Assembly: GCA_963812605.1 (NCBI GenBank)
Contig: CAWEWF010000010.1
Coordinates: forward strand, 1 to 64,000
Source of the DNA: an uncultured Verrucomicrobiae bacterium
GTDB lineage: Bacteria; Verrucomicrobiota; Verrucomicrobiia; Palsa-1439
DNA: 64,000 nucleotides
Direction: 5' to 3'
Each line of letters starts with the position of its first letter. Position 1 is the stretch's first letter. Positions 1 to 17,184 of this stretch are shown piece by piece. The translations under genes were made by a program, and so were the position numbers. The notes under the pieces were generated by a model, which searched no databases, had not been told where the DNA came from, and was given only the letters and a program-made list of their open reading frames with translations.

Positions 1-248
1 GCTCCGCTCCGATCTGGCGACACCAACGCCGCCATCCGCCGCCTTCACATCTTCCTTGATTTTCAGATTCTGGACTTGGCGGCAATGCCGCAGACTGAAA
101 TTGTCACTAGTACATTGGGACGGGTGAAGTATTATCGTACTTTATTCCCCTATACCAGCATCGGCTCTAACACGGAGATCATATTATCTGTTGTGGGAAC
201 GAAGTAACGCATGATATGCAGATTCCAAAGTAGTCCACTACCATAAAA

Positions 249-273
249 TGGGCTCCCCGCGCGGACTCGAACC
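249..273 (-). other. tRNA 3'-end remnant (Asn-like), probable att scar of an integrative element
   Basis: Minus strand reads GGTTCGAGTCCGCGCGGGGAGCCCA (T-loop, acceptor 3' strand, CCA). The 5' side of the T-stem and the rest of the cloverleaf are absent. Confidence 0.55.
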
Positions 274-320
274 TGTGCAAATCCGCGATCCAAGGCAAGC
301 AAACTGGAAACCATTTAAGA

Positions 321-452
321 CAGGATGTGTTGCGGGTTTTTGTCCCAACCAAATTGAAAATGCCCCCAAAGTCGCAACCGTTCCTGTCTTTTCAGGTGTC
401 AACTCGCAACAGATTCACTACAACTGGCAACACTTTGGCCCTTTGATTGCGA
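321..452. repeat. 132-bp multi-box repeat, copy A
   Basis: Aligns without gaps to 5282-5413 (79/132 identical by hand count). Identity is concentrated in boxes such as TCGCAWC..TTCCTGTC, TCGCAWCAGATTCA and GCAWCACTTTGGC. Confidence 0.75.
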
Positions 453-639
453 GTATCCATACCCAAAACTCAACCAGCGCATGCCCGCTATCCCCCGTCT
501 GGACAATTGGCGGGATTTTGGGTAGCCTCCTAGTTCATTCGGTCAGGCTTGTCGCAACGTAAGACATGACCAGTTTTTGGCGTGACGTTTCGTTCGCCAA
601 ATTGTCCAAATTCAGCAATCAACGGTTCTCAATCAGCCA

Positions 640-1977
640 ATGGCCATCTCTAAGAATCGTGGAAGGCTCATCCTCCTCTCTATTGTCGTCCTGATCTTGG
701 TCGGACTGGCTTGGGCGGCGTTTTTCCGGAAGAAGGAAGCCGTCATCACTGTCCAGACGGAAAAAGTAAAGCGGCGCAACCTAACCGAAGTGGTGGTGGC
801 CAACGGAAAAATCCAGCCCGTCCTCCAGGTCAAGATCAGTCCGGAAGTGAGCGGTGAGATAGTAGAGTTGCCCGTCAAAGAGGGCCAGCAGGTCCAGAAG
901 GGCGATTTGATCCTGAAGATCAAGCCGGATGAGTATCTCGCCAACCGCAACGTGGCAGAGGCGAATTACCAGTCCTCATTGGCCAGCCGCGCGACTGCCG
1001 AGGCGAATTTGCGAAAGGCGGAAGCAGACTACAACCGCACGAAGGGCCTGTTCGGAGCCAAACTCCTCCCACAAAACCAGTTTGACCAGGATCGGGCGAT
1101 ATTTGATGTCGCCGTGGCGCAACTCACGAATGCCGCCGATCAGGTGGAGATGGCGAAGGCGTCACTGGCCAGCGCAGAGCAGGAACTCGCCAAGACCACC
1201 ATCTTGTCTCCACTTACGGGCACCATCAGCAAGTTGAATTCACAACTTGGAGAGCGGGTTTTGGGAACGGTCCAGAATGTCGGGACCGAGATTATGACCA
1301 TTGCTGACTTGAATCAAATGGAAGCGCGGGTAGATGTCGGTGAGATCGATGTTGTTTTGGTCCGGCCGGGGCAAAGGACGCGGTTGGAAGTGGATGCGTT
1401 CAAAGATCGCAAGTTCAACGGGATCGTCACAGACATCGCAAATTCCTCGAAAACCTCTGGAGTGGGTAGTACCACCACAAGCAGTCAGACACAAGAGGCG
1501 ACGAAGTTTGAGGTGCGCATCCGTTTTGGCGAGCAGGAGGCGTTCCGCCCCGGCATGTCCGTCAGCGCCGAGATTGAGACCCGCTATTGCACTAACGTGC
1601 TGACTGTGCCCATGGCCAGCGTTACGACGCGCGCGGCAAAGCCACCTGAGAAAATGGGCGCCTCTGGCAAGGACACGGCCAAAAAAAGCGATAACAACTC
1701 GGCTCTGTCCGCCGACCTGCCCAACTCCGCGCCCTCGGAAAAGAAGTCCAAGGAGGCGTCCGCGCCGGGGGAGGTCGTATTCGTGGTCGAGGGAAATCAC
1801 GTGAAAGTGGTACCGGTGAAGATCGGGATCAGTGATGACAATTATTGGGAGATAACCGAGGGTGTTACCGAGGGACAGGAGGTGGTCGCGGGCGGGTACC
1901 GGGCCATAAGCCGCGACTTGGAAGACGGCAAAAAGATCCGCAAAGGCCAGTCTACTGATATGGAGCCAAAGATGTAA
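640..1977 (+). CDS. Efflux periplasmic adaptor subunit (MacA/HlyD family)
   Basis: N-terminal TM anchor, lipoyl-like ISPEVSGEIVELPVKEGQQVQKGD motif, coiled coil, FRPGMSV motif; followed by an ABC ATPase and permeases. Confidence 0.92.
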   Translation: MAISKNRGRLILLSIVVLILVGLAWAAFFRKKEAVITVQTEKVKRRNLTEVVVANGKIQPVLQVKISPEVSGEIVELPVKEGQQVQKGDLILKIKPDEYLANRNVAEANYQSSLASRATAEANLRKAEADYNRTKGLFGAKLLPQNQFDQDRAIFDVAVAQLTNAADQVEMAKASLASAEQELAKTTILSPLTGTISKLNSQLGERVLGTVQNVGTEIMTIADLNQMEARVDVGEIDVVLVRPGQRTRLEVDAFKDRKFNGIVTDIANSSKTSGVGSTTTSSQTQEATKFEVRIRFGEQEAFRPGMSVSAEIETRYCTNVLTVPMASVTTRAAKPPEKMGASGKDTAKKSDNNSALSADLPNSAPSEKKSKEASAPGEVVFVVEGNHVKVVPVKIGISDDNYWEITEGVTEGQEVVAGGYRAISRDLEDGKKIRKGQSTDMEPKM

Positions 1978-1979
1978 CG

Positions 1980-2727
1980 GTGGCATTGATCCACTTCCAA
2001 AATATTTCGCGGCGTTACCAAATGGGGGCGGAAACCATCCACGCCCTGCGTGACGTGTCGCTCGAAATCCAGCGCGGCGAATACGTCGCCATTATGGGGC
2101 CGTTCGGGCTCTGGCAAGTCCACGTTGATGAATCTCATCGGCTGCCTCGACACGCCGACATCAGGCCGATATGACCTAAATGGTATCAACGTCAGCGAAA
2201 TGGACGACAATCAGCTTGCCGAAGTCCGCAACCGCGAGATCGGGTTTATGTTTCAGACTTTCAACCTGTTGCCGCGATCCCACGCACTGCACAATGTCGA
2301 ATTGCCCCTCATTTACGCGGGTTTGCCGTCACACGAACGTCGCAAGATCGCGTTGGATGCGCTGACACAGGTAGGCCTGGCTGATCGAATCCATCACAAG
2401 CCCAACGAACTCTCCGGTGGCCAGCGCCAGCGCGTGGCGGTCGCACGCGCGCTTGTCAACAAGCCATCGATTCTTCTGGCGGACGAGCCGACAGGGAACC
2501 TCGACTCCAGGACCGGCGCCGAGATCATGGCGTTGTTTGGGGAACTTTCTCAAAAAGGCAACACAATCATTGTCGTCACACACGAAGAAGAGGTGGCCCG
2601 TCATGCCCACCGCATCATCCGAATTCGCGACGGGTTAATCGCCAGCGATGAACCACAGGCCGACAGCGATGCCACACGCCAGAAGACCATTTTCGGGCGT
2701 TCCCCTTGTCACCGGCAACTCGTCCCC
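1980..2727 (+). CDS. ABC transporter ATP-binding protein (MacB/LolD type), frameshift near 2100
   Basis: Walker A split across frames (IMGP / SGSGKST), LSGGQRQR signature, [16 protein letters not shown]. It runs in frame into the permease as assembled, so the end is approximate. Confidence 0.85.
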
Positions 2728-3960
2728 ATGAATTTGTTCGCCGAAATGCGTGAAGGCTTTGGCATCTCGTGGGACGCGATCCGGGCCAACAAAATGCGCT
2801 CGGTGCTCACCACGCTCGGGATTGTGATTGGCATAGTCACCGTCACGCTCATGGGCACCGCCATCGAGGGTTTGAATGGGGCATTTCTAAACAGCATCTC
2901 GGTGCTGGGCGCGGACGTGTTCTACGTCGAGCGTCAAAATTGGCTGACCAATACCCAGAATGATTGGCTTCGGCAACAAAAACGCCGTCCGATCAGTCTG
3001 GCGGACTCGGAGTCCCTCGCCCGACAACTGACGCTCGCCGCAGCGGTGGCTCCCACCGCGTATGCGGATGCCACCGTGAAGTACAAGAACCACAGTTCCA
3101 ACCGTGTCAGCATCCTCGGCACCAGTGATGAGTATTTTCCCGTCAGCGGCGTCGGTATTTCGCAGGGCCGTTCTCTTTCCGCGACCGAAGCCAATGGAGG
3201 CCGCCCCGTCTGCGTCATTGGCACACAAGTAGCAACCAATCTATTTCCGCACGAGGAGCCACTGGGCAACCGAATCAAGATTGGTGCCCAATCGTTTGAG
3301 GTCATCGGCGTGCTTGAACGACAGGGAACGTTCCTCGGCGTGTTCAGTCTGGACAATCGCATCATCATTCCCTTGCAGCAGTTCAGGGCGAATTTTGTGA
3401 GCAACCCTGAGATCCAGATTCAGATCAAAGCCGCCGATGTTGTCCAGCTGGACGAAGCGCGCGAGGAATTACGCCAGACGATGCGACGGATCCGTCGGGT
3501 CGCGCCCGATCAGCCTGACGATTTTGCGATCAACCAACAGGATCAGTTCGTCAAAATGTTCCATCGCCTGGCGGGCACAATCGCTGTCGTCGGGTTGTTG
3601 ATCACCGCCCTTTCGCTGTTCGTCGGCGGCATTGGCATCATGAACATTATGTTCGTTTCGGTCGCCGAACGAACGCGCGAAATCGGCATCCGCAAGGCCA
3701 TCGGCGCCAAGCGGCGCGCGATCCTCCTGCAGTTTCTTATCGAGGCCGCTTGCATTTGTGTGTTGGGCGGATTGATCGCCCTGAGCATTGCGTGGCCGTT
3801 GACCCTGGCCGTTCGCAAATGGTTTTTACCTGCGACCATGTCGTGGACCATCGTCGGCATTGCGTTGCTCATGTCGCTGGTGACTGGCTTGGTCTCCGGC
3901 TTCGTGCCCGCATGGAGGGCGGCGCGCTTGGATCCCGTGGACTCATTGCGAAGCGAATGA
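2728..3960 (+). CDS. ABC transporter permease (MacB-like, FtsX domain)
   Basis: [16 protein letters not shown]; [28 protein letters not shown]; [17 protein letters not shown]. Confidence 0.92.
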
Positions 3961-5215
3961 AGGTTCACAAACCAACGCTGCTGCTCGCGAAACCGGAGAG
4001 AGCTGTTCCATGGCCCTGGGTGCCCTGGCGGCGCACAAGCTGAGGTCCGCACTCACGGTGCTCGGCGTACTCATCGGTGTGTTTTCGATCATTCTGGTAA
4101 TGACGACGATGCGCGCGTTGAAGGCCAACATTGAACGGGAGATGAGCCAGTTGGGCAGCCAGACTTTTGCCGTCCAGAAGTGGCCGGCGATCTATTTCGG
4201 CGGTCCGGAAGGCTTTGAGAAATTCTGGCGGCGCAGGAACATCACGCTCGCCCACGGACGCGAGGTGCAGGAAAAGGCCACGCTGGCCGGCAACGTGGGC
4301 GTCGAAGCCAATCTTTGGGGCGGCCAGGTGGAGACGCGCTATCAAAAGACCCCACCCACAGTCCAATTGCTTGGCGAAACACCGGGGAGTTTCCCGGCGC
4401 GCAACTGGATCCTGGCCGGTGGCAGGGCCCTGACGGAACCGGACGTGGAGAATGCCCGCGACGTGTGCGTCTTGGGTGATGGGCTGGCGAAAACCATCTT
4501 TCCGTTCGGTTCGTCCGTCGGGGGACGCCTGAAGATCAACGGAGTCAATTATACCGTGGCCGGCGTCCTCGCGCCCAAGGGTGGTGCCATCTCTGGCGAG
4601 CAGGATAATTTCGCGGTAATCCCGATCACGACCGCGCTGAATCGGTTTGGCCGGTTTCGCAGCCTCACGATCCTTGTCCAAGCACGCGATGCGGCGAACT
4701 ACGACGACACCGTTGAGCAGGTCCGTGGTATCCTTCGCGTCGCCCGCAAAGTCCCGCCGCGGGCTACAGACGACTTTGAACTGTTTTCCAATGACTCGCT
4801 GATCACACAGTTCAACACGTTCACGAAGGCCGTGCGCATTGGTGTTTCGGTTGTCACTCCATAGCGCTGATTGCCGCGGGCATCGGCATCATGAACATCA
4901 TGCTAGTTTCCGTCACGGAACGGACACGCGAGATCGGTGTCCGCCGGGCCGTGGGCGCGAAGAAACGGAACATCCTGATGCAATTTGTCGTGGAGGCGGT
5001 TCTGCTCTGCGAAATCGGTGGGGTCATCGGTGTACTTCTGGGCATCGGTAGCGGGTATGTGGCGGCCCGGTATCTGAAGGTCCCGCCCGGTAATTCCGTT
5101 CGACTGGGCGGTCCTCGGCCTGATGATTTGCTCAATCGTGGGCATCGTTTTCGGTACCTACCCGGCATGGAAAGCGGCGAACCTCGACCCTATCGAATCT
5201 TTGCGCTACGAGTAA
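3957..5215 (+). CDS. Second ABC transporter permease (frameshifted)
   Basis: [15 protein letters not shown] ... [23 protein letters not shown] ... [17 protein letters not shown], spread over several frames. Confidence 0.85.
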
Positions 5216-5281
5216 TCACCGCAGAAATCTGCCGGAGTTGCGATCTGCACGGAATCTCCTCTGGATTGTTGCGAACCGTGT

Positions 5282-5413
5282 CAGGAACTGTTGCGAAATC
5301 GCCACCCCGGCAAATCGAATTGAGGCGTTTGTTCGCATCACTTCCTGTCATTTCGACCCCTGTTTCGCATCAGATTCAATGAAGTTCGCATCACTTTGGC
5401 GCTTCTGATGCGA
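5282..5413. repeat. 132-bp multi-box repeat, copy B
   Basis: Direct diverged copy of 321-452. GTTCGCATCACTT occurs twice (5331, 5384) and an inverted TGATGCGAAC sits at 5406. Extra GTTGCGA boxes lie just upstream at 5237 and 5268. Confidence 0.75.
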
Positions 5414-5446
5414 ACCGGCGAGGGTCTGCCTAGGGGCAATCGGAAA

Positions 5447-6133
5447 TCAGATGCCGGCGCCAATTTCGGCGTGAACCATTAGCGGGACGGTGTCGATGGT
5501 TGCCGTCGCACGGCTCGTTTTCATCGTGCGCTTGGCCAACTGCTCCATCGCCGCCACTCCTTGGCGAGCTTTATCGTCACAAACATCGGCGTAGACGGCT
5601 GTGGTCGATGGGCGACTGTGACCCAGTTGTTTCTGCACCAAGCGCAAGTCCTGACTGGCTTCGTACAACAAAGTTGCCGCCGTATGCCTCGCGTCGTGCA
5701 GTCGGTGTTGGGGGCAGTAGCGATTCCACCTGCGCCACAGGGCGCTACGATTTAAACGCTCGGAGCGTTTTGTGCGGAGCAAGTGAGCATCTGGATGAAG
5801 CTCGCCGATCTGGTCTTTCCATCGCAGGAACCACCGCAAATCCTTCTTCAACTCCGGGCCGATCCTGACCACACGGCCTTTGTTACCCTTCCCGTGACGC
5901 ACCAGCAATTCGCTGTGCGAGTAGCCGATGTGGCAGTCGGTCACCATCAGGTCGCAGATCTCCGACGCTCGCAGTCCGGAGAACAGTGACAGGCGGATGA
6001 TCAGCCAGTCGCGGACGGCCTGACGGCGACCCTTCGCCACGCCCAGAGAGCGCAACTCCTCGGCGCGGCGCAGCAGTTTCCCGACTTCCTCCTTCGCCAG
6101 ATAGCGATCAGGTGTCAGCGTCCATTCGTTCAT
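5447..6133 (-). CDS. Tyrosine recombinase/integrase, catalytic domain only
   Basis: SGLRASE (R), HGKGNK (K), HDARH (HxxR), LGHS (H), TAVY (Y). At 228 aa there is no room for an N-terminal core-binding or arm domain. Confidence 0.92.
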   Translation of the reverse strand: MNEWTLTPDRYLAKEEVGKLLRRAEELRSLGVAKGRRQAVRDWLIIRLSLFSGLRASEICDLMVTDCHIGYSHSELLVRHGKGNKGRVVRIGPELKKDLRWFLRWKDQIGELHPDAHLLRTKRSERLNRSALWRRWNRYCPQHRLHDARHTAATLLYEASQDLRLVQKQLGHSRPSTTAVYADVCDDKARQGVAAMEQLAKRTMKTSRATATIDTVPLMVHAEIGAGI

Positions 6134-7098
6134 TTGAGTGCCTCCTGAAACAGTGCGCGTGCCTTGTCCGTCGCCACACGTCCGCGCGGCGTGCGCTGGA
6201 CGTAGCCTTCACGCAAAAGAAAGGGCTCGATTGCGCCGGTTACAGTCTCGAGGTTTTCTTCCAGTGCGCTCGCCAGCGCCTCCGCTCCGACCGGCTCCTC
6301 GGATCCGACGAGACGCTCCAAATACTCACGGTCCGTCCTCGTCAGCCCGTTCTGATCGACACCCTTCAAGTCAAAAGCCAGGCGGACCAGCTCGCCCGTT
6401 GCCACGTCGCCATCACCCTGGACGACATCACGCACCCAGTACAGGTTCGACACCGCCGTGCGGGCGGTGCCGCGGGACCTCTTCGCGATCTCCGCCGCGA
6501 GTTCGGGCAGCAACGCGAAGGCGAGTTTCTCCGCCACGCCGCTGACAATCCGCTCAAGGTCTTCCACTGAGTACGGTTCCAACTCGATGACCTGGCGGAA
6601 GCGACTGCGGAGTGGTGCGGTGGTTAGTCCTAAAAGAGTTGTGGCGCCGACAAGTGTGAACGGCGGCAACCGATGCGTCTTCGTCGCCTGCTGTCCCTGG
6701 CGAATCCCGAGTTGCTTGACCAAATCGTCGAACCCTTTCTCGCTCGTGGTGACCGTGCCGTCTTCCATTGCAGGATAGAGAATTTCTTCCACTTTTCTCG
6801 GTAATGCGTGCAATTCATCAACAAAAAGGGTGTCGTTGGTCTTCAACTGCATCAGATGATGAGTCATGTCGCTTGTCGTCTTCACCGCTGAACCAATCAT
6901 CTCGACCAGGCGCCCGTTCATCTCGTGCGCCAGGATGCGCGCCAGTGTGGTTTTGCCAAGACCCGGAGGCCCGCTCATCAACAAATGTGGCACCGGCTCG
7001 CCCCTGCGCTTGGCCGCAGAGATCAGCACCTGCAGAATCCGGCGGGCGGACGCTTGCCCGACGAAATCAGCCAAGCTGGTTGGACGGATGTTATTCAT
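6130..7098 (-). CDS. ruvB: RuvB-like Holliday junction branch-migration AAA+ ATPase (orphan copy)
   Basis: IRPTSLADFVGQ, GPPGLGKTTLA, FVDELH, EEILYPAMED, PPFTLVGATT, PLRSRF, IEPFLLREGYVQRTPRGR. Confidence 0.9.
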   Translation of the reverse strand: MNNIRPTSLADFVGQASARRILQVLISAAKRRGEPVPHLLMSGPPGLGKTTLARILAHEMNGRLVEMIGSAVKTTSDMTHHLMQLKTNDTLFVDELHALPRKVEEILYPAMEDGTVTTSEKGFDDLVKQLGIRQGQQATKTHRLPPFTLVGATTLLGLTTAPLRSRFRQVIELEPYSVEDLERIVSGVAEKLAFALLPELAAEIAKRSRGTARTAVSNLYWVRDVVQGDGDVATGELVRLAFDLKGVDQNGLTRTDREYLERLVGSEEPVGAEALASALEENLETVTGAIEPFLLREGYVQRTPRGRVATDKARALFQEALK

Positions 7099-7200
7099 AT
7101 TCTAGAATTGAGGAGGCGACGGCTGTACCCTTTCAGGTCCCCGATTTTCAGTCGAGGAGTACCACGACTGTCGCGAGAGTCACCGCCGCCTCCATCATTG

Positions 7201-7392
7201 TTACCGGTTATCGCGACGGTCGGTTGGTGACGCCGTCGGCACCGTCTGGAAGCGAACCCAACTGATCTGCGCAGCGGGAACGCGCGCCTTAATTATATTC
7301 AGCGCGCTTTGGGTTGAGGTGTTGCTGAAGCTTTCGGTCGTGTAGCCGATTCCCATTTTGGGCGCTGAGTAGTGAATTTCGGTGATGTTCAT
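7201..7392 (-). CDS. Small hypothetical protein (63 aa)
   Basis: Strong RBS (GAAAGGAG) upstream of the ATG; co-oriented with ruvB and the recombinase. Confidence 0.55.
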   Translation of the reverse strand: MNITEIHYSAPKMGIGYTTESFSNTSTQSALNIIKARVPAAQISWVRFQTVPTASPTDRRDNR

Positions 7393-7503
7393 AATTGCTC
7401 CTTTCTTATGCCCCCAAGCATGTCATGTTTCGCCCGAACGTCCATGGCAGAGGTTGATTTTTGTTTCAAGAATACTTGGGGAGGCACTTTCATCGTTCAC
7501 TTG

Positions 7504-7823
7504 TCACTGCCCCGGCACGAGGCGTTGTTTGGCTTCCTCCAGCACCTGCCTCGGCACGGGGCCAGCCTGCCACACGGGTTGCCCTGCAGAGCGTTTCTCG
7601 TAGCCACTGAAGTAGATGTCCCCGTCAAACCAGACCTCGACATAGCAGGCGTCCATATCAACCTGCTTGCCGCGAGGACGGTTCGCGACCACGACAATAT
7701 CTTTGCCCTTCAGCAACGACTCCAAGTGATCGCTCCACGCCAGCCATTGGCACCACTGGCCGCGGAAGGCGCAGTGACCGAAGGATTGGTCGAGGGCTTG
7801 CAACGAGGATGAGAGGGCGCACC
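7504..7823 (-). pseudogene. Hypothetical protein, 5' end cut by the IS
   Basis: The frame stays open up to the IS left end at 7824, with no convincing start codon. Confidence 0.45.
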
Positions 7824-7918
7824 TGTCCTAACAACCGGATCGTGAGACCGGAATTCTTGGGAAACAGGGTAACACTTCAAAGCAGTGGTTTAAGGAAAGA
7901 ACCACAAGGAGTGTTACC

Positions 7919-9325
7919 ATGGAGAGGACTCACAAGTTAGAAGGCAAGCAGAGGAAGACCTGCCCCCCGAGGGGGGCAGCGCGGCGCGGCAGTCAGCCCT
8001 ATCCCGTCGAACTGCGACTGAAGGCGGTCAAGCTGCGGCTGGAGGAAGGCTACCCGTTGGAACTGGTGGCCCGTGAAGCCGGGATCGGCCAGAGTACGCT
8101 ATCGAAGTGGATCGATCGCTACCAGCAGCACGGGGAAGCCGGGTTACAGCCACTGATCGGCGGTCCCAAAGCCGGCGCGCCCAAGGTGGCGGCCGCAGTC
8201 AAATCGCGGATCACCGCGTTGAAACAACAGCATCCCCACTTCGGCGTGAAGAGGATCGCCCAGGTGCTGCGGCGGGTGTTGTTTCTGCCGGGCAGTCACG
8301 AGACGGTGCGGCGGACGTTGCATCAGCAACGGCTGATGACGAAGACGAAAAGGAAGGTGTCGAAGAACCCACCGAAGCCGCGGTTCTTCGAGCGCAGCAC
8401 GCCCAACCAGATGTGGCAGAGCGACATCTTCACGTTCCGGCTCGGTGGCAAGAATGCCTACCTGATCGGGTTCATCGATGACCACTCGCGCTACATCGTC
8501 GGGCTGGATCTGTTCCGCAGCCAGACTGCCGAGCACGTATTGGAACTCTACCGCACCGCGGTGGCAGAGTACGGCGTGCCCAAGGAAATGCTCACCGACA
8601 ACGGGCGGCAGTATGCGACGTGGCGCGGCAAGACGCGGTTTCAACAGGAGTTACAAAAAGACCGTGTCCACCACATCCGCAGCTCTCCCCATCACCCGAT
8701 GACGTTGGGCAAGATCGAGCGGTTCTGGAAAACGATCTGGGAAGACTTCCTGGTGCGGGCGCAGTTTGACAGCTTCGAGCAGGCCCGCGAACGGGTGCGG
8801 TTGTGGGTCAAATACTACAACCACAAACGTCCGCACCAGTCGTTGGATGGGCTATTCCCGGCCGACCGGTTCTTCGCCATCGCGAAGGAACTGCGCGCCG
8901 TGATTGAGCGCGGCATCGCCGACAACATCCAGGAGCTGGCGTTGCGTGGTCAACCCCAAGAACCCTTCTACATGGTCGGCCGGCTCGGCCAGCAATCGGT
9001 GGTGATCCGCGCCGAGAAAGGCCAGGTGAAGATGCATCTCGACGGCGAAGAGACCTCGTTGAATCAAGAACTCACGTACAACCTGAAAGGAGAACCTCAT
9101 GACGACAGAAACCAAACCCAAAAAGGAACTGAAGGTGTACAATGCCCACCAACGAGCGCAGGCGGTGCTCTCGGTGTGGACGGAGCGGCGCCAGCGCGGA
9201 AGTGTGCCGGCAACTGGGAATCAACAGCACGCTGTTGGCCCAGTGGCAGGACCGGGCGATGGTCGGGATGCTGGACGCGTTGCAACCGCGCAGTCTGCCG
9301 GAACAACAACTGGGTCCGGCGTTGA
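7919..9325 (+). CDS. IS481-family-like transposase (HTH + integrase core)
   Basis: N-terminal HTH; DDE triad WQSD, LTDNG, GKIER; YNHKRPHQSL. The C-terminal end is uncertain because it overlaps the next gene. Confidence 0.88.
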   Translation: MERTHKLEGKQRKTCPPRGAARRGSQPYPVELRLKAVKLRLEEGYPLELVAREAGIGQSTLSKWIDRYQQHGEAGLQPLIGGPKAGAPKVAAAVKSRITALKQQHPHFGVKRIAQVLRRVLFLPGSHETVRRTLHQQRLMTKTKRKVSKNPPKPRFFERSTPNQMWQSDIFTFRLGGKNAYLIGFIDDHSRYIVGLDLFRSQTAEHVLELYRTAVAEYGVPKEMLTDNGRQYATWRGKTRFQQELQKDRVHHIRSSPHHPMTLGKIERFWKTIWEDFLVRAQFDSFEQARERVRLWVKYYNHKRPHQSLDGLFPADRFFAIAKELRAVIERGIADNIQELALRGQPQEPFYMVGRLGQQSVVIRAEKGQVKMHLDGEETSLNQELTYNLKGEPHDDRNQTQKGTEGVQCPPTSAGGALGVDGAAPARKCAGNWESTARCWPSGRTGRWSGCWTRCNRAVCRNNNWVRR

Positions 9326-9453
9326 CGAGCAAACTGGAGCGACTGCTGGCGCGCCAGAGTCTGGCCCAGGAGGGCAAGCTCTCGAAACTGGAGAAGCGTC
9401 TGGCCCGGCTGCCGTCGGAGCCGCCAGCGTCGTCACCGTCCAAGGAGAAATAA
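9099..9453 (+). CDS. Small HTH protein of the IS (frameshift near 9192)
   Basis: RBS AAAGGAG; MTTETKPKK..AQAVLSVWTERR joins SAEVCRQLGINSTLLAQWQDRA in another frame. Confidence 0.65.
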
Positions 9454-9480
9454 CGCCGGCGCTTGACGAACCGGAGGGGC

Positions 9481-9822
9481 ATGAATCCGAACCAACACCC
9501 GAACCCCCAGGAGGCACTGGCCCGGCAACGGGCGGCGCTGATTGTGGGGGTGCAGAGCGGCCAGATCACCGCGAGCGAAGCGGCGCAGCAATTGGGCATC
9601 TCCCGCAAGACCTATTACCAGTGGGAGAAGCGGGCGCTGGCGGCGTTGGTGGAAGCGATGCGCGACCGGCCGGGTGGTCGCCCGGCGACGCCGACCAATC
9701 CCGCGCAGGAAAAGCTCCACCAACAGACGCAGCAGTTGCAGGAGCAAGTCCAGGTGCTGGAACAAACGCTGGCGATTCGCCAACAACTGGCGGAACTGGA
9801 GCGCCCTAAAAAAAACTCCTGA
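9481..9822 (+). CDS. HTH protein (OrfA-like) of the IS
   Basis: ITASEAAQQLGISRKTYYQWEKR HTH, GRP motif, coiled coil; RBS GGAGG; ends at an A9 run. Confidence 0.75.
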   Translation: MNPNQHPNPQEALARQRAALIVGVQSGQITASEAAQQLGISRKTYYQWEKRALAALVEAMRDRPGGRPATPTNPAQEKLHQQTQQLQEQVQVLEQTLAIRQQLAELERPKKNS

Positions 9823-9832
9823 GAGCGCCACC

Positions 9833-10875
9833 ATGATCGTGATCCAACTGCAAACACTGCACGAGCAAGCCGTCCAACCGTATCGCCCGCTGTGTGTGGC
9901 GGCGACGATGCCCTACGCGACCTTCATGCGCTGGAAAGGGCGGCTGGCGCGTGGCCTGCCGGTGCTCCAAAAGCCCGGCCCCAAGCCAGTTGGCTCATTG
10001 GACTTGGCCGGCTTGCAAACGCGGTTGCGCCTGCTGGAACATGGTCCCCGCCGCAGTCACGGCGCAACCGCTCTGTATGCCCAACATCGCTCGCAGATCT
10101 CACGGCGCAGTTTCCACAAGTTGGTGGAAGAAACGCGCCGCCAGATTCTGCGTGAACGCGAAGCCGACCGGCGGAGCGTCCACTGGCAAGTGCCCGGCAC
10201 CATCTGGTCGGTGGACCCCACGGAGTTGGTGCTCGTGCGGGATGGAGCCCGGCAGAAACTCCCTATGCTACCGGTGCTCGACCTGGCTTCGCGCTACAAG
10301 TTCGCGCCGCTCGTAGACGAGCGCTTCACGGGTGAATTGGTCGCGGCTCGACTCGACGAGTTGTTCGCCCAGCACGGCCCTCCGCTGGTGCTCAAGCGCG
10401 ACAACGGCAGCAACCTCAACAGCGAAGCCGTGAACGCCGTGCTCAGCCGGTGGCTGGTGATCCCGCTGAACTCACCGCCGTACTACCCTCCCTACAACGG
10501 CGGCATCGAACGTGCCCAGCGCGAACTCAAAGCGGCGTTGCGCCCCGGCTCCTGGCCCACCCGGCCAGCGACGTCGCTGGACTGGCCGCGTTGACCGTCC
10601 ATGAACTCAATCACCGGCCCCGTCGCTGTCTGCGGGGCGTCACGGCCTGCGAGCAGTTTGCCGGTGCAAAGCGGAACCTGTGCGGCTATACTCGCCGCAG
10701 GAGAAAGGAAATGTTTGAGCAGATCAGCGGATTGGCCATGAAGATCATGCTGGAACAGCCCGTTCGCACCCAAGGACACGCCGACGCCGCGTGGCGTCGA
10801 GCCGTGGAAACCTGGTTACAACAACAAGAGATCATTACGATCTCAGAACCCAAAAGTGTTACCCAGTTCTCATGA
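9833..10875 (+). CDS. Second DDE integrase-core transposase (frameshift near 10545)
   Basis: WSVD, VLDLASRY, LKRDNGS, PPYNGGIER; continues as ELNHRPRRCL in the 10450-10875 frame. Confidence 0.8.
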
Positions 10876-10906
10876 AAACTGGTCTCATAAATAGGTTGTC
10901 CCTACA

Positions 10907-11307
10907 GTCTCCGAAGGCATATTTGGCTACCACGCCTGGCGTAGAATCAGGAACCTTTGTTATGGTCATCGCCTCATTAGGAATGATCGGAATGTCTGGA
11001 ATCAGTGCAAATTTATATTTACCTTTACCAACGGGACGAATAATCCACACTTTCTTGCCTTTGGCCAAGCAACAATTTTGTCGGGGAGATTCGCTCGATA
11101 TCGGAAACTATAAACTAGATCGCCCAAATTCTTGGGAAGAGGGATGCTTAATTTTTTTGCGCACGCCTCAAATTCAGCCCTCTCAAATGCTACCTCGCGG
11201 GCGCCCTTCTTGTACTTGGCGAAGAAGATGTCTTCGATTATCGCAGCGTATCGATTTGGTTTCTTAGGTTTTGCCTGAAATGTATTCTGCATGTTTTCTT
11301 TGACCAT
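10907..11307 (-). pseudogene. Probable restriction endonuclease, 3' part removed at the IS
   Basis: PKNLGDLVYSFRYR ... TKVPDSTPGVVAKYAFGD stops at the IS end; lies directly downstream of a methyltransferase; visibly lower GC. Confidence 0.6.
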
Positions 11308-11331
11308 AAGTTCCTCTGCTTGCTTTTGGGA

Positions 11332-12174
11332 CTAACCAGTAACCGAGACCGTGCCCGGCCACCGGAGAATAACAACTTCCTCTCTAAGTTGCTCCTTCGT
11401 TGCGGTTGCTAGTCGGGTGCGATACAAATCTATCCCGACGACTTCGTAGCCAATCGATTTCGCGATACTAGCCAAAAGCTGACCAGTCCTGACCATAATG
11501 CGCAAATAAGAGGCTTGGTCCCCAACGACGTAAGCCAATTGCGCTCCGGGGCGTAAGACTGAACGAAGATCGAGGAGATGCCTATTCATCCCGCCAAAGT
11601 ACAACTGTGTGACCCGCGCGTATAGTTTTTCAAAACCTGAAGTCTTCCCAAGCTCAATTCGGCGAGCCTCAATGGCATGTGCAATCCGTTGGATTTCTTC
11701 GTGATCTCTCACCAGGCGGTCATCTGTATCGCTCTTATAAACACTTCGCGTATTCGATCTCACTAACATTTGCTTTAGCGAGCGCAGGTCTCCGTTCGTC
11801 TGAATAAATCCCAACACTACGGATTCTAGTCGCGTCGTTCGGGTGTAATCCTTTTCATTCGGGTAGGGTGGTGACGTAATAACAAAGTCGATAGAGTTCG
11901 GTTGGAGTATCGAAGCTAAATCCCTTGCGTCCGCCCGAAAAACTTTAGATGAAGTCTGGGCGTGCGACCGGAGAGTTGGCAAGTCATTTGCGATATTGCT
12001 CACAGCAGCGAGCCACACGCTAAGAACAGAAGCGTCCAGCTTTATTTCTCCAACCCCGACTTCAGGCCCAAAATGCAGATTACCGATTCTCGTTACCAAC
12101 GCGTTAGCAAGAGCGAGCCGCTCGTGTCCAATAAAGTGTTCATCCACATTTTCCGTCAGTGTCTCCAATAGCAC
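11332..12174 (-). pseudogene. DNA amino-methyltransferase (SPPY, N4-C type), N-terminally truncated
   Basis: DFVITSPPYPNEKDY (motif IV) and LRPGAQLAYVVGD are present; no FxGxG SAM-binding motif in the remaining ORF. Confidence 0.75.
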
Positions 12175-12403
12175 TAAGGTCTTATGCAGTGGCAGAGGGC
12201 TAAGGGGAAAGGAGTCCAGAGGGAAACTGGGACGGCGCTTTGTCCCTGTGTCCCTTTGGTCGGTGGTGGGGAGCGGGGCGCACGGGTGAACAACAAAACG
12301 GACACTAAACGAGTTAGAAAGGGTATCGTTGAGTAAAGTCGATTATGCTTGATTCGCCAATGAAATCAGGCATTATGTGAGTGCAATCGCGGCGGGAAAA
12401 GGC

Positions 12404-12429
12404 CGATTCTCACACCCGCCTCCAAATTT
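12404..12429 (+). other. tRNA-Cys-like 3' remnant (att-like), copy 1
   Basis: CGATTCTCACACCCGCCTCCA gives a T-loop end, an acceptor strand ending CGCC, a U discriminator and CCA; near-copy at 37831. Confidence 0.5.
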
Positions 12430-12686
12430 TGCGAGTGGTTGCCCTCGGCCAAGATCATCGAGATCCAACAGTTCACCCCCTTGGAGTGGGCCGGGTCATG
12501 TCAGGCTCGATCAGCGCAAGCCGCGTAACGTGGCTGATTGAAGCCTCAGCGTTGAGATTTGAACCGTACTGACCAGCCGGCCAATTCCTCCGCGCCGCTT
12601 TGAGTGCTTTCCATCGGGCGCGGTGCCGCCGCGATCCTCTCCGTCGTAAATATGGTTTTGAGCCAGGTTGCCACGGCCGCGGCTGG

Positions 12687-14123
12687 TCAAGGTAGTTCAC
12701 GAATCTTTACATTGCGGAAAGAAACTTCGCTGCCGTGTTCCTGCAACAAAATATGTCCATCCGCCCATTCGCCGAAATCGGGGATGTTTTTGAATTTGCT
12801 TTTGGCAACCGCGTCGCGGAACGCAGCCGATCCGCGCTCACATTCCACGGTCTTCTCGCCGTTAAGCCAGAACTCAACGTGCCTGCCCTGCGACAAAATC
12901 CGCGCGTGATTCCATTCCCCGACCGGCATGACTTTTTTATCGGCGGGCGCGGGAATCAAATCATAAAGCGAACCCAGCGTGCGGTCGCCGTCGCGGCCCA
13001 GCTTGGCGTCCGGATGATGCGCGTCGTCGAGAATCTGAAATTCCATGCCGATGGCCGAGCCGACGGCAGCGTTCGTGCCGGTCGTCGGATCCACCGGCGA
13101 CAGGTTGGGTTGCACAAAAATCTTGATGCCGCTGTTACAACCGATGGTGGTCTTGAAATCCGCGACCAGTTCAAAATTCGCGTAGCGTTTGCGCGTGATG
13201 ATGTCGCCACCACCGGCGGACTCCTCACCGCCGTTTTCGCGGACGGTCAGCACCCCGTCGTGAATCTCCCAGCCCTTTGCAGGAAAGTCTTCTGACCTGG
13301 CACTGCGCCAGCCGTTCGAAGTTTTGCCATCCCAGAGCAATTGCCAGCCGTCGGCTTTTTCCTGTTCGGTCAGCGTGTTGGGCGCGGCGCCGGCGGAATC
13401 CGATTTGATTTCGCGGAGGCGGAGGTTGCGGAAGCGAACTTTCAGCCCGACCTTGTTCGGATCCTGGCCGATGCCGTGAACCTGTAAGCCAATGATACCG
13501 TGCAGCGTGAGGCTGTCATTGATCTCAGCGCGCGCCACGCCGTTCAGCCAGGTCTTGATGGACGGGCCGTCCGCGACGATGCGGAGCTTGTTCCATTCCC
13601 CGTTCTTGCTGATGGCGCGGCCCTGTTCGGAGAACGCCAGGCCCTGCTTGCCCGTTTCGCCATCGGCGGGAAACAGCCAGCCGCGCCGCGCCTCGTCGTA
13701 AATGCCCGCCGTCCACATCCGGCCGCGCGCCACGTCCATGTCAATTTCACACTGGTAGCCGTGAATGCGATCCGCGGCGACCTTGATTTCCTTGCCGTCA
13801 ATGTTTAGCGTCCGCGCCTCGGGAAAAACCTCGCTGCGGATTTGCACGCCGGAATTCAGCAGGGGGTCGCACTGGTACTCCAGTTCCAGCTCAAAATTTC
13901 CATAGGGTTGCCGGGTGCAGAGAAAACTGTTACCCGTGTTGGAAACCGATTCGCCGGTCAACACGCCGTCTGCAACGGTGTATTTTGCCCGGCCGCTGTG
14001 CTCTTCCCAGCCGTCGAGATTTTTTCCGTTGAACAAGTTGACCCAGCCGTCCTGCGCCAGAACCGGCCGCGCCGCGAGCAAGGTTGCCATGATAAACGAT
14101 GACAGGAGATTGCTTACTTTCAT
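12687..14123 (-). CDS. Tandem DUF1080 (3-keto-disaccharide hydrolase-like) secreted protein
   Basis: Signal peptide; two LFNGKNLDGW / LWDGKTSNGW ... NSG ... LQxHG ... FRN domains. Confidence 0.88.
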   Translation of the reverse strand: MKVSNLLSSFIMATLLAARPVLAQDGWVNLFNGKNLDGWEEHSGRAKYTVADGVLTGESVSNTGNSFLCTRQPYGNFELELEYQCDPLLNSGVQIRSEVFPEARTLNIDGKEIKVAADRIHGYQCEIDMDVARGRMWTAGIYDEARRGWLFPADGETGKQGLAFSEQGRAISKNGEWNKLRIVADGPSIKTWLNGVARAEINDSLTLHGIIGLQVHGIGQDPNKVGLKVRFRNLRLREIKSDSAGAAPNTLTEQEKADGWQLLWDGKTSNGWRSARSEDFPAKGWEIHDGVLTVRENGGEESAGGGDIITRKRYANFELVADFKTTIGCNSGIKIFVQPNLSPVDPTTGTNAAVGSAIGMEFQILDDAHHPDAKLGRDGDRTLGSLYDLIPAPADKKVMPVGEWNHARILSQGRHVEFWLNGEKTVECERGSAAFRDAVAKSKFKNIPDFGEWADGHILLQEHGSEVSFRNVKIRELP

Positions 14124-14315
14124 TTGATGAGAAGAATAATGTGGACAGGGTCAAAAGTCGATTCCGGCAGCGACTGATCCCTGGTTTCCGGCGGGACCGG
14201 CGGCGATCATCCCATTGACCAAATGAATGAAACCGGGATATTGTCACCGCACGGAGCCAATGCCGCCGGCCTTTGGTCCCGGCCCCGACTGGCGACGCGA
14301 CTGCACCAAGCGAAA

Positions 14316-15317
14316 ATGAGCAACAAACTTACCAGGCGGGACTTTATTAAGGGTGCATCTGTCTTGCCCTTTAGCGCCGCAGGCATCGGAATGGGGACCG
14401 TTTCGGCCATGGCCTTCGAGCCGATCAAAAGGGTGGGCGCCTCGGCGCTCAAGGTTTCTTGCAACGCCTACTCTTTTAACAAGCTGCTGAACGACCATCT
14501 TCAGGGCCGCGGCGCGGGCATCAGTCTGTTCGACCTCGCCGCTTTTTGCGCGAAACAGAATTTCGACGGCTTCGATGTCACGGGTTATTTTTTCCCCGGC
14601 TATGAGCAGGATGGCCCGGGTGTGCCCACCGACAAATATATTTTCGAGCTGAAGCGGCGAGCGTTCGATCTCGGTCTCGGCATCAGCGGCACGGGTATAC
14701 GGAATAATATCACCGTGGCGGACAAGACAGCGCGCGCCAAAGACGCGCAGCGCATCAAGAATTGGGTAGAGGTCGCGGGCAAGTTGGGCGCGCCTGTGCT
14801 GCGGGTGTTTGCCGACACCCAGATGCCTGGGCAGACGTGGCAAACCGTGTCGAAGGGCGCGACACGCGATCAGGTGGAGGAATGGATCGCCGCTGATATT
14901 CGCGAGTGCGCTGACCACGCCGCAAAATTCGGCGTGATCATCGGCGTCCAAAACCACGGTGATTTTGTGAAGACCGCCGACAACCTGATCAGCCTCCTCA
15001 AACGCATTGATTCGCCGTGGTGCGGCGCCATCGTGGACACCGGCAAGTTCCAAGCGGCCGACCCGTATGCGGAGATTGCGAAGGCCGCGCCCTACGCGGT
15101 AAACTGGCAGATCAAGCAGAGTCCGTTGGGCGTGGAAGCCGAAGATGCCAGTCCCACCGACCTGAAACGATTGGTACATATCGTCCGCGACTCCGGCTAT
15201 CGTGGCTATCTTCCGATTGAGACCTTGTCTCCGCCTGGCGGCGGGAACTATGATCCTTTCGTAGTGGTGCCGAAATTTCTCAAGGAACTTCGCGAGGCCA
15301 TCGCTGCAACTGCGTAA
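14316..15317 (+). CDS. Tat-exported sugar phosphate isomerase/epimerase (xylose isomerase-like TIM barrel)
   Basis: TRRDFIK Tat motif; LGAPVLRVF, QNHGDF, DTGKF, GYRGYLPIE. Confidence 0.85.
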   Translation: MSNKLTRRDFIKGASVLPFSAAGIGMGTVSAMAFEPIKRVGASALKVSCNAYSFNKLLNDHLQGRGAGISLFDLAAFCAKQNFDGFDVTGYFFPGYEQDGPGVPTDKYIFELKRRAFDLGLGISGTGIRNNITVADKTARAKDAQRIKNWVEVAGKLGAPVLRVFADTQMPGQTWQTVSKGATRDQVEEWIAADIRECADHAAKFGVIIGVQNHGDFVKTADNLISLLKRIDSPWCGAIVDTGKFQAADPYAEIAKAAPYAVNWQIKQSPLGVEAEDASPTDLKRLVHIVRDSGYRGYLPIETLSPPGGGNYDPFVVVPKFLKELREAIAATA

Positions 15318-17174: not shown

Positions 17175-17184
17175 GGTGGTCTCC

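What the first reader, a model, noticed from the sequence alone, without database searches (positions are those of the whole stretch)
5447..7098. Minimal tyrosine recombinase coupled to an orphan RuvB with a remodelled RuvA-binding hairpin
Seen: the ruvB stop overlaps the recombinase start (ATGA at 6130-6133), and no ruvA or ruvC is in the window. The recombinase keeps all R-K-HxxR-H-Y residues but is catalytic domain only. Between YPAMED and PPFTL, the RuvB reads GTVTTSEKGFDDLVKQLGIRQGQQATKTHRL instead of the shorter LDIxIGxGPxARS-type hairpin. Known: that beta-hairpin is the RuvA-contact element of canonical RuvB, and tyrosine recombinases pass through a Holliday junction intermediate. Inference: a mobile element carrying its own RuvA-independent branch-migration motor dedicated to its recombinase (loosely analogous to FtsK driving XerCD). 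I do not recognise this as a named system.
Basis: partly seen in the sequence, partly recalled or inferred. Interest (0 to 1): 0.82.

Follow-up and report, generated by a model that had tools for sequence, protein, structure and literature searches.

The report
Private RuvB motor beside short recombinase
A soil Verrucomicrobia genome carries a compact, widely conserved module in which a second, remodelled copy of the RuvB DNA motor is always coupled to a stripped-down tyrosine recombinase and its own 160-base recombination site, a combination that has apparently not been described.

Summary
Window 5254-7457 (minus strand) is a conserved 2.2-kb module: 63-aa ORF, structured spacer, RuvB paralogue (322 aa), 4-base ATGA overlap, catalytic-domain-only tyrosine recombinase (228 aa), then a ~160-base multi-repeat site. 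The host has ordinary ruvB, ruvA and ruvC on another contig. The paralogue forms its own clade. All 32 members examined carry an 11-13 residue insert in the hairpin that canonical RuvB uses to bind RuvA, yet keep the ATPase motifs. In 14 of 14 distinct loci where DNA after the paralogue is available, the short recombinase follows directly. RuvA was found in 0 of 19 module loci and 21 of 39 canonical loci.

New here: the site has two co-varying inverted repeats plus accessory repeats. Its repeat motif comes in several types. Recombinase similarity tracks the type; RuvB similarity does not. Sites form co-oriented arrays after the recombinase, bracket ordinary cargo (here a macAB-like efflux operon), persist as orphans in recombinase-free relatives, and occur as hybrids swapped between the first two repeats.

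That RuvB acts as a RuvA-independent motor on the recombinase's junction is inference only. Five literature searches found no description.

The parts
300..457 (-). Site A: a complete ~160-base recombination-type site of a different repeat type (CTCGCAAC-like), with no recombinase beside it and the same orientation as site B
   Evidence: nhmmer E 5.2e-39; sequence-only CM 115 bits; the motif table shows R1-R5 of my 'type 2'
494..5223 (+). Cargo between the two sites: macA-like adaptor (640-1977), MacB-like ATPase/permease (2050-3960) and a second FtsX-type permease (4010-5215, read in three frames)
   Evidence: NCBIfam MacA 2.6e-37 and MacB 9.4e-136. The same block lies at other chromosomal places, with no sites nearby, in same-genus genomes. 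Frame breaks:
5260..5423 (-). Site B, the cognate site. In gene orientation: R1 (5405-5416), 10-12 base spacer, R2 (5384-5394), R3 (5363-5373), conserved block, R4 (5331-5341), conserved ~35-base loop, R5 (5288-5299), R6 (5266-5277). IR-I is R1/R2. IR-II is GACAGGAA+R4 against R5+TTCCTGTC
   Evidence: Covariation of both inverted repeats. Homology with L053 ends at 5254
5447..6133 (-). Catalytic-domain-only tyrosine recombinase (Rec), 228 aa
6130..7098 (-). RuvB paralogue (RuvB2), 322 aa. Full RuvB fold with an 11-residue insert (strand-helix-strand, residues ~115-143) in the pre-sensor-1 hairpin
7099..7200 (-). Conserved structured spacer between the 63-aa ORF and RuvB2: a long closing stem and three inner hairpins if read as RNA
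   Evidence: RNAalifold on 5 loci: 28 pairs, 6 with compensatory change. No Rfam family
7201..7392 (-). 63-aa ORF with a beta-beta-alpha-beta core (residues 2-50) and a Pro/Ser/Gly-rich tail; a small family found only with this module
   Evidence: homologues upstream of RuvB2 in L051, L052, L053, L055 and L061 and after Rec in L089. Only 7 representative clusters in 1.84 billion proteins. Model pLDDT 83. No fold match
7393..7457 (-). Upstream end of the DNA shared with other copies of the module (likely promoter region)
   Evidence: blastn homology with L053 runs to 7457 and with L052 to 7448
7821..10907 (+). Context only: a multi-copy insertion sequence with two rve-type transposase genes, inserted about 360 bases upstream of the module
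   Evidence: Pfam rve. A 94% copy lies at G000:C14:880358-883437 and there are copies in relatives

Best explanation
Window 5254-7457 is a self-contained site-specific recombination module. It comprises a Xer-like tyrosine recombinase reduced to its catalytic domain, a dedicated RuvB-family hexameric motor, a small accessory protein, and a ~160-base site directly after the recombinase gene. Shown: the genes are translationally coupled and always together. The motor keeps every ATPase motif and the whole RuvB fold, but its RuvA-docking hairpin is rebuilt. The site has a core inverted repeat (R1/R2, spacer 10-12 bases), a second long inverted repeat (around R4/R5), and further copies of the same 9-11 base motif. 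The motif differs between copies of the module, and recombinase similarity follows it. Inferred, fairly safe: the recombinase binds the repeats and exchanges strands between R1 and R2. Sites are swapped exactly there in hybrid sites. Sites also line up in the recombinase's orientation, with cargo such as the macAB-like operon between them. Inferred, speculative: RuvB2 does not recognise the motif and is freely exchanged between modules. It is recruited to the recombinase-DNA complex through its remodelled hairpin in place of RuvA. It then uses ATP to move or resolve the four-way junction that the recombinase makes, or the cruciform that the palindromes can form. This would supply directionality or the DNA grip that the missing core-binding domain normally gives.
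For: Pairing: Rec directly follows RuvB2 in L008 (= L022), L023, L051-L054, L056, L057, L059, L060 and L072 and in L082, L083 and L089. That is 14 of 14 distinct loci with downstream DNA; four more loci (L055, L058, L061, L067) end inside or at RuvB2. Rec was found in 0 of 49 canonical RuvB loci. The 4-base overlap is kept in every ORF pair listed. Contig lengths recur between the RuvB2 and Rec hit lists. Separate clade: 32 RuvB2 rows against 23 canonical rows, SH-aLRT 100. Insert: present in 32 of 32 and absent in 40 of 40 canonical sequences. It is the only large gap against solved P. aeruginosa RuvB. That hairpin, with helix alpha3, is the RuvA domain III contact (PMC9477746, passages read). 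ATPase residues K49, T50, D94, E95, E112, D113, T154, R166 and R213 are invariant in 35 of 35. The model has pLDDT 89 and TM 0.86-0.89 to RuvB structures. RuvA: 0 of 19 module loci plus the window, against 21 of 39 canonical loci. Site: E 1e-39, with only two copies in the assembly. IR-I is 81% paired with 8 of 11 pairs compensatory. IR-II is 72% paired with 9 of 18 compensatory. 0 of 500 shuffles reach this, and slid controls give 31-42%. Rec identity is 74-92% within a motif type and 57-73% between types. RuvB2 does not follow type: 82% between types and 66% within. Hybrids: L094 and the second site of L098 have a type-1 R1 joined to R2-R6 of another type. Arrays: all sites are co-oriented with Rec in the window, L051, L052, L082 and L085.
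Against: No experiment and no direct evidence of recombination exist. Reads and contigs from four public runs gave no usable junction. Nothing shows that RuvB2 touches Rec. RuvB2 and Rec have different histories. That fits a generic motor, but it equally fits two functions that merely share an operon. Two loci with Rec show no site by the profile: L057, with only 225 bases visible, and L089. In the 50%-identity subclade the site is recognisable only by eye. Sites A and B in the window are pure types, not hybrids, so the macAB block was not visibly inserted by an R1/R2 exchange. The same block sits without sites in relatives. Motif types and the word 'hybrid' are my own labels read from alignments: 16 sites are concordant, 2 clearly discordant and 4 ambiguous. 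Covarying inverted repeats cannot separate protein-binding half-sites from hairpin or cruciform DNA. The MAG is 90% complete, and the contig starts 300 bases from site A.
Confidence: 0.5

Rival explanations
1. RuvB2 is not a branch-migration motor here. It would be an AAA+ regulator or remodeller of the recombination complex, doing what IstB, TnsC and MuB (target capture) or ClpX (complex disassembly) do for transposases. It would load Rec on DNA, choose the target, or strip the product complex.
For: Rec lacks the domain that normally clamps DNA, so a loader is plausible. RuvB2 is exchangeable between modules of different specificity. A ClpX-like ATPase (NCBIfam ClpX 4.8e-40) sits just upstream of RuvB2 in L059, with BLAST relatives in the same family in L008 and L052. 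PHROGs gives a weak match of residues 150-292 to a 'DNA transposition protein' family (1.3e-10). The roles of IstB, TnsC, MuB and ClpX are recalled, not tested here.
Against: The whole RuvB architecture is kept at 40-46% identity to true RuvBs, including the C-terminal winged-helix head and the trans-acting residues. This argues that DNA translocation is retained.
Confidence: 0.2
2. The two genes serve a larger mobile replicon independently. Rec plus site would be a Xer/res-like multimer-resolution or integration system. RuvB2 would be the element's own recombination or replication-restart helper. Adjacency would reflect an operon, not a joint mechanism.
For: Other loci hold DNA-metabolism genes next to the module: an ATP-dependent ligase with a WGR domain, a ClpX-like ATPase and an HTH_36 protein. 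Core-plus-accessory-repeat sites are typical of resolution systems (recalled). RuvB2 and Rec have separate histories.
Against: The conserved DNA is only the 2.2-kb module, and the neighbours differ from locus to locus. No RuvB2-clade gene (over 48% identity) was found in 72,556 plasmid records, 50,697 phage records or the 80 loci kept from the IMG/VR viral contig collection. The strict 4-base coupling and the 14 of 14 pairing are stronger than usual for unrelated functions.
Confidence: 0.15
3. The sites are used as folded DNA, as single-strand hairpins or an extruded cruciform, in the manner of integron attC. The co-varying repeats would pair with each other rather than specify protein contacts. 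RuvB2 would extrude or migrate that four-way structure.
For: Two inverted repeats covary. Single-strand DNA folds give z -1.9 to -3.6 in 7 of 7 strands tried. Arrays hold sites of mixed sequence but the same architecture. Hybrids show exchange between unlike sites.
Against: R3 and R6, which have no pairing partner in the simple fold, change in step with the other repeats. Rec similarity follows the motif type. Both points are better explained by protein recognition of duplex DNA.
Confidence: 0.1
4. A decaying duplicate of ruvB that happens to lie beside an integrase remnant; no joint function.
For: An IS element, a frame-broken permease gene and a contig end lie nearby.
Against: Both ORFs are intact, with all catalytic residues invariant across the family. 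More than 100 protein clusters of each family exist. The pairing is universal.
Confidence: 0.03

Closest known systems
RuvAB Holliday-junction branch-migration motor
   Same: Same three-domain RuvB fold, ATPase motifs and 40-46% sequence identity.
   Different: It is a second copy in the genome and forms its own clade. The RuvA-binding pre-sensor-1 hairpin carries an 11-13 residue insert. It is never beside ruvA or ruvC and is always translationally coupled to a tyrosine recombinase.
XerCD-dif activated by the FtsK translocase
   Same: A Xer-like tyrosine recombinase whose reaction may be driven by a hexameric DNA motor. The nearest solved relatives of Rec are XerA, XerD and XerH.
   Different: FtsK is a RecA-fold cell-division protein that is not co-encoded with Xer. 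Here the motor is an AAA+ RuvB paralogue in the same operon. Rec lacks the N-terminal domain. The site is ~160 bases, not a 28-base dif (the dif length and FtsK facts are recalled).
Integrons (IntI, attI, attC cassette arrays)
   Same: The recombinase is followed by co-oriented, palindromic, sequence-variable sites with unrelated cargo between them. Hybrid sites occur.
   Different: The integron-integrase model scores 64 bits against a 265-bit cut-off. Cargo can be a 4.7-kb operon with its own upstream region, in either orientation. The sites are longer, with six repeats. A RuvB motor is part of the unit.
TnpI-IRS type resolution sites of Tn4430-like transposons, and arm-type sites of lambda-like att sites
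   Same: A core inverted repeat plus extra copies of the recombinase-binding motif on one side (recalled architecture, not tested here).
   Different: Those recombinases have an N-terminal DNA-binding domain and need no ATPase. No transposase or phage genes accompany this module.
AAA+ partners of DDE transposases (IstB, TnsC, MuB)
   Same: A dedicated AAA+ ATPase gene coupled to a recombinase gene in a compact mobile unit.
   Different: The ATPase clade and the recombinase chemistry (tyrosine, not DDE) are different. No such partner is known to me for tyrosine recombinases (recalled).

Membership tests
Housekeeping RuvB (NCBIfam NF000868 / TIGR00635) | RuvB_N, AAA lid and RuvB_C domains; RuvB fold | tested here: met
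   Pfam 1.1e-46, 3.2e-10 and 7.5e-19. Foldseek top hits are all RuvB, E 5e-35, TM 0.86-0.89
Housekeeping RuvB (NCBIfam NF000868 / TIGR00635) | Curated equivalog score | tested here: inconclusive
   NF000868: 309.4 bits, over its 282 cut-off. TIGR00635: 281.4 bits, under its 299.05 cut-off
Housekeeping RuvB (NCBIfam NF000868 / TIGR00635) | Walker A/B, sensor 1, arginine finger, sensor 2 and trans-acting Glu-Asp | tested here: met
   K49, T50, D94, E95, E112, D113, T154, R166 and R213 are invariant in 35 of 35. Motif names are recalled; the trans-acting residues are named in PMC9477746
Housekeeping RuvB (NCBIfam NF000868 / TIGR00635) | Canonical pre-sensor-1 hairpin that docks RuvA domain III | tested here: not met
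   An 11-13 residue insert and different sequence in 32 of 32 clade members, against 0 of 40 canonical sequences. It is the only large gap against solved RuvB. Binding itself is not testable here
Housekeeping RuvB (NCBIfam NF000868 / TIGR00635) | The genome's single orthologue, often near ruvA and ruvC | tested here: not met
   The host has another, canonical ruvB plus ruvA and ruvC on contig C1. Separate clade. RuvA in 0 of 19 module loci
Tyrosine recombinase (Pfam PF00589) | Catalytic domain with R, K, H-x-x-R, H and Y | tested here: met
   89 bits against a 27.1 cut-off. R55, K82, H146, R149, H172 and Y181 invariant in 35 of 35
Xer recombinases (XerC, XerD, XerA) | Curated family score and two-domain build with an N-terminal core-binding domain | tested here: not met
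   XerA 96 bits against 220; XerC 85.7 against 335; XerD 84.7 against 329.6. Matches cover only the C-terminal halves of the models. The alignment to solved XerA starts at its residue 116
Integron | IntI-type integrase | tested here: not met
   TIGR02249 64.2 bits against a 265 cut-off; NF011946 39.2 against 435
Integron | Array of co-oriented recombination sites separating promoterless cassettes next to the integrase | tested here: inconclusive
   Co-oriented arrays occur in 5 loci. However, cargo includes a whole operon, is in either orientation, and is also found without sites in relatives
Known anti-phage defence systems (PADLOC) | Match to a defence-system protein model | tested here: not met
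   Rec and the 63-aa ORF have no match. RuvB2 gives only generic P-loop matches at E 6e-07 or weaker

The most novel reading that the evidence does not exclude
This would be a previously unrecognised gene-capture and shuffling platform of Verrucomicrobiota and related phyla. It would be the functional counterpart of an integron but built differently. A tyrosine recombinase without a DNA clamp would work with a private RuvB motor on 160-base two-palindrome sites. The motor would replace RuvA-guided branch migration by recombinase-guided migration of a junction or cruciform. This would let unlike sites recombine and let whole operons, such as the macAB-like pump here, be taken up, lined up after the recombinase, and left behind as site-flanked cargo.
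Probability: 0.3. Interest if true: 0.9.

Novelty: new variant of a known kind. Interest (0 to 1): 0.8.

Why it matters
Tyrosine recombinases are thought to need no external energy. The one well-known exception is FtsK acting on XerCD, and it is not a dedicated partner. A recombinase that has shed its DNA-clamping domain and is invariably coupled to its own RuvB motor would be a new way of running and controlling the Holliday-junction step.

It also offers a natural experiment on what the RuvA-binding hairpin of RuvB does. The sites come in several specificities that track the recombinase, while the motor is interchangeable. The family could therefore yield sets of orthogonal recombinases with one shared helper. 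Ecologically, the site arrays point to an unnoticed route by which soil Verrucomicrobia move ordinary operons.

Tried and rejected
- **Co-fold of RuvB2 with Rec** (alignments A2 and A1): no verdict (median 0.30, mark 0.32). I do not use it either way.
- **63-aa ORF as a mimic of RuvA domain III or an excisionase:** Foldseek against the PDB gave no match at E 0.001 or better; the best was 0.037, to a phage virion protein. The wider structural library was not on the machine. The 63-aa ORF upstream of RuvB2 in L059 is not related to it (hhalign probability 0.3).
- **tRNA-linked att site:** bases 249-275 look like a tRNA 3' end. ARAGORN finds no tRNA in the window, and the fragment matches no tRNA of the assembly beyond 15 bases.
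- **Second site or half-site upstream of the 63-aa ORF**, which would flank the module: none found in 8 upstream regions (best E 0.58).
- **Empty-site comparison for the left flank:** window 1-242 has a homologue in G401 in another context, and the contig starts at base 1. No boundary could be drawn.
- **macAB as a site-borne cassette elsewhere:** in L081 and L090-L093 it has no sites nearby.
- **Direct evidence of recombination in public runs:** only assembled contigs were available. One run (X1) holds pieces identical to the window. One contig of an RNA library joins 393 to 5385, but out of register and with 31 bases on one side, so it most likely comes from a related site of another organism. 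I count it as nothing.
- **Rfam:** no family on 1-12000. Only a sub-threshold microRNA-family match (22.7 bits against a gathering score of 54) on 12000-20000.
- **Plasmid, phage and viral-contig collections:** RuvB hits reach at most 46% identity. In the viral loci there was no Rec and no site.
- **Literature:** searches (listings and abstracts seen) gave no paper that pairs a RuvB paralogue with a tyrosine recombinase. Supplements are closed and could hold such a mention.
Full report
**What is there.** On the minus strand of the window lie, in order:
- a 63-aa ORF (7392-7201);
- a 100-base spacer;
- a 322-aa RuvB-like gene (7098-6130);
- a 228-aa tyrosine recombinase (6133-5447).

The RuvB stop and the recombinase start share ATGA. 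Pfam finds all three RuvB domains in the first gene. In the second it finds only the catalytic domain of the integrase family. NCBIfam places the first just above one RuvB cut-off and just below the other. It places the second far below every Xer or integron cut-off, always matching only the C-terminal half of those models.

**Not the housekeeping RuvB.**
- The assembly (15 contigs, 90% complete) holds a canonical ruvB, ruvA and ruvC on contig C1.
- The window protein is about 42% identical to that host RuvB.
- With the hairpin columns removed, 32 window-type sequences and 23 canonical RuvBs fall on opposite sides of a branch with SH-aLRT 100 (quick IQ-TREE, LG+G4). The canonical set came from Verrucomicrobiota, Solirubrobacterales and Nitrospinota. 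I dropped 17 near-duplicate canonical rows before building the tree. The groups were first set by identity to the query, which is a caveat. The presence of the recombinase marks the same set independently.
- All 32 window-type sequences carry an 11-13 residue insert with a GF-x-DL-x-KQLG-like helix between the two hairpin strands. None of 40 canonical ones does.
- Against solved P. aeruginosa RuvB this is the only large gap.
- AlphaFold models the insert as strand 115-119, helix 123-129 and strand 139-143 at pLDDT about 60, inside an otherwise confident RuvB fold (mean pLDDT 89.3).
- Passages of PMC9477746 state that RuvA domain III binds exactly this pre-sensor-1 hairpin together with helix alpha3, and that binding there stimulates ATP hydrolysis.
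- The ATPase residues, including the trans-acting Glu-Asp and the arginine finger, are invariant in 35 of 35 family members.

So the motor looks active but re-wired at its regulatory dock.

**The pairing is a rule.**
- The protein database holds over 100 clusters at 57-88% identity to the window RuvB2. Nearly all are 319-330 aa and come from metagenomes or Verrucomicrobia MAGs.
- It likewise holds over 100 clusters of the short recombinase. Most are 216-248 aa and none in the list exceeds 280 aa. One comes from a Lentisphaerae MAG. Many contig lengths recur in both lists.
- In fetched DNA the recombinase follows RuvB2 within 0-24 bases in 14 of 14 distinct loci that continue past RuvB2. These are 11 from metagenome or genome scans (L022 is part of L008) and 3 from same-genus genomes. 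Four further loci end at or inside RuvB2.
- The 4-base overlap recurs in the ORF tables.
- No recombinase of this family lies in 49 canonical RuvB loci.
- RuvA was found in 0 of 19 module loci plus the window, and in 21 of 39 canonical loci.

**The site.** Directly after the recombinase gene lies a ~160-base element. It is conserved in architecture in the window, L051-L054, L060, L072, L082 and L083. By eye it is also present in the 50%-identity subclade (L008, L023, L059). In gene orientation it reads:
- R1;
- a 10-12 base spacer;
- R2 (inverted);
- R3;
- a conserved block ending GACAGGAA;
- R4;
- a conserved ~35-base loop;
- R5;
- TTCCTG;
- R6.

R1/R2 form one inverted repeat. GACAGGAA+R4 pairs with R5+TTCCTGTC to form a second. 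Both are kept through compensatory changes:
- overall 75% of cells are paired, against 31-42% when the partner columns are slid;
- 17 of 29 pairs show changes on both sides;
- 0 of 500 shuffles reach the observed values.

A profile of the site finds only two copies in the whole assembly: 5260-5418, next to the recombinase, and 300-457.

**Specificity types.** The repeated motif differs between copies of the module. The type labels are mine, read.

| Type | Motif | Where found next to the recombinase |
|---|---|---|
| 1 | TTCGCATCA | window, L053, L072 |
| 2 | CTCGCAACA | L051, L052, L060 |
| 3 | CTGAACAGA | L054 |
| 4 | AACGCAAGC | L082, L083 |

Recombinases are 74-92% identical within a type and 57-73% between types. 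RuvB2 ignores the types: L053 (type 1) and L052 (type 2) are 82% identical, while the window and L053 (both type 1) are 66% identical. The 63-aa protein ignores them too. I read this as follows. The recombinase reads the repeats. The motor is sequence-blind and is swapped freely between modules.

**Arrays, orphans, hybrids, cargo.** Site A in the window is a complete type-2 site in the same orientation as site B. The macAB-like operon lies exactly between them: homology with relatives' operons spans 494-5223.

Other loci show the same layout, and every site is co-oriented with the recombinase:
- L082 has recombinase, then sites of types 4, 3 and 2 and a partial site. Between them lie a 916-aa TPR protein and a BsuPI-domain protein.
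- L051 has two sites 780 bases apart.
- L052 has two adjacent sites.
- L085 has recombinase fragments and two sites around a GH28 gene (Pfam calls).

In the genus, 4 of 18 genomes have the recombinase. In contrast, 18 sites at E 1e-10 or better lie in 8 of 18 genomes, four of which lack the recombinase.

Two sites are clear hybrids. L094 and the second site of L098 have the type-1 upstream flank and R1 joined to R2-R6 of another type. This places past strand exchange between R1 and R2. Against that, 16 sites are concordant and 4 are ambiguous.

The macAB block itself sits at three other chromosomal places, without sites, in relatives. In G402 and G412 it lies between genes that are adjacent in this host. 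It is thus movable DNA. Its movement by this system is not shown.

**Distribution.**
- Only 3 of 401 genomes sampled across the phylum have a RuvB2-type hit. All other best hits are at most 47% identical.
- No member was found in the plasmid and phage collections or among the 80 loci kept from the viral-contig scan.
- DNA shared between copies is just 5254-7457 in window coordinates.
- Upstream neighbours vary: a ClpX-like ATPase, a ligase with a WGR domain, and here a 99-aa ORF followed by an IS element.

**How it probably works.** I take it as fairly safe that Rec binds the repeats and exchanges strands at R1/R2. The role of RuvB2 is inferred from what it has kept (the translocase) and what it has changed (the RuvA dock). 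It also rests on the fact that a tyrosine recombinase makes the very structure RuvB acts on.

My best guess is that a Rec-bound junction, or a cruciform of the palindromes, takes the place of RuvA-junction. Rec without its clamp domain would leave the DNA arms free for RuvB2 rings. ATP would then drive migration across the long spacer or make the reaction one-way.

The rivals cannot be excluded by computation: a loader or remodeller role, independent functions in one operon, and folded-DNA substrates.

**Comparison and novelty.** The module works most like XerCD with FtsK, and its arrays look most like an integron. It fails the membership tests of housekeeping RuvB, Xer and integron integrases (see table). 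Five full-text searches returned nothing that pairs a RuvB paralogue with a tyrosine recombinase. Databases name the proteins simply RuvB and integrase/XerD. I rate it a new variant of a known kind, with a fair chance of being more.

**Limits.**
- Everything rests on sequence comparison.
- The host is a 90%-complete MAG, and the window begins at a contig end.
- Type and hybrid calls are manual.

Noticed in passing
window 4010-5215: The second FtsX-type permease gene of the macAB-like operon reads in three frames, with breaks near 4856 and 5087. Orthologues in five relatives are intact at 401 aa. Related contigs in public runs carry one extra G at 4856 and one base fewer at 5086. This is either a true pseudogene or an assembly error.
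   Followed up: partly
window 7821-10907: A 3.1-kb insertion sequence with two rve-family genes (7919-9325, 9542-10594). It is present at 94% identity at G000:C14:880358-883437 and in several copies in same-genus genomes. It sits about 360 bases upstream of the module and may have cut the 99-aa ORF at 7504-7803.
   Followed up: partly
window 7099-7200 and the same place in L051, L052, L053, L061: A conserved structured spacer between the 63-aa ORF and RuvB2. It has a 12-pair closing stem and inner hairpins, with 6 pairs showing compensatory change. No Rfam family matches. It may be an attenuator or a translation control element.
   Followed up: partly
window 249-275: A 25-base stretch that reads like the T-arm and acceptor 3' end of a tRNA lies just outside site A. 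No whole tRNA is there, and none in the assembly matches it.
   Followed up: yes
window 12286-12430 and 12438-12542: Two short elements, of about 140 and 105 bases, recur at 79-92% identity at one or more places in many same-genus genomes. No RNA family matched. They lie where the variable region gives way to conserved chromosome.
   Followed up: no
window 15460-15749: A ~270-base element is found once in nearly every genome of the genus at 73-78% identity. A second copy lies in this host (C14:129334-129615). No Rfam match.
   Followed up: no
window 19901-20000: A 100-base repeat is present at 94-99% identity on contigs C4, C8, C9 (twice) and C14 of the same assembly.
   Followed up: no
window 11332-12174 and 11002-11307: A 280-aa type II DNA methyltransferase (PADLOC MTase_II 5.7e-24, motif SPPY) has no Pfam or NCBIfam hit. 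A 101-aa ORF of unknown family lies beside it. They may be a restriction-modification remnant.
   Followed up: partly
L059 4104-5768, L008 3987-5657, L052 1455-3083: A ~550-aa ClpX-like AAA+ protein (NCBIfam ClpX 4.8e-40, far under the cut-off) lies near or directly upstream of RuvB2 in three loci. This makes two AAA+ ATPases of the same superclade in one neighbourhood.
   Followed up: partly
L051 2625-4013, L055 4339-5727, L054 2498-3631, end of L067: An ATP-dependent DNA ligase-like protein with a WGR domain sits just upstream of the module in several metagenome loci.
   Followed up: no
L052 about 7895 and 8088; L053 4942: A 20-base perfect hairpin (GGTGGTAAGAATTTACCACC and variants) follows the site in some loci. 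It is absent from this host's assembly.
   Followed up: partly
L082 7062-10032, L086 8125-10612, L087 about 680-1550: A TPR-repeat gene with a type-2 site at its 3' end is shared, at about 70% identity, by three same-genus genomes. Two of them lack the recombinase. It looks like a gene-plus-site unit.
   Followed up: partly
G000:C14:750058-756692 (outside the window): A dense array of about 20 tRNA genes within 7 kb.
   Followed up: no
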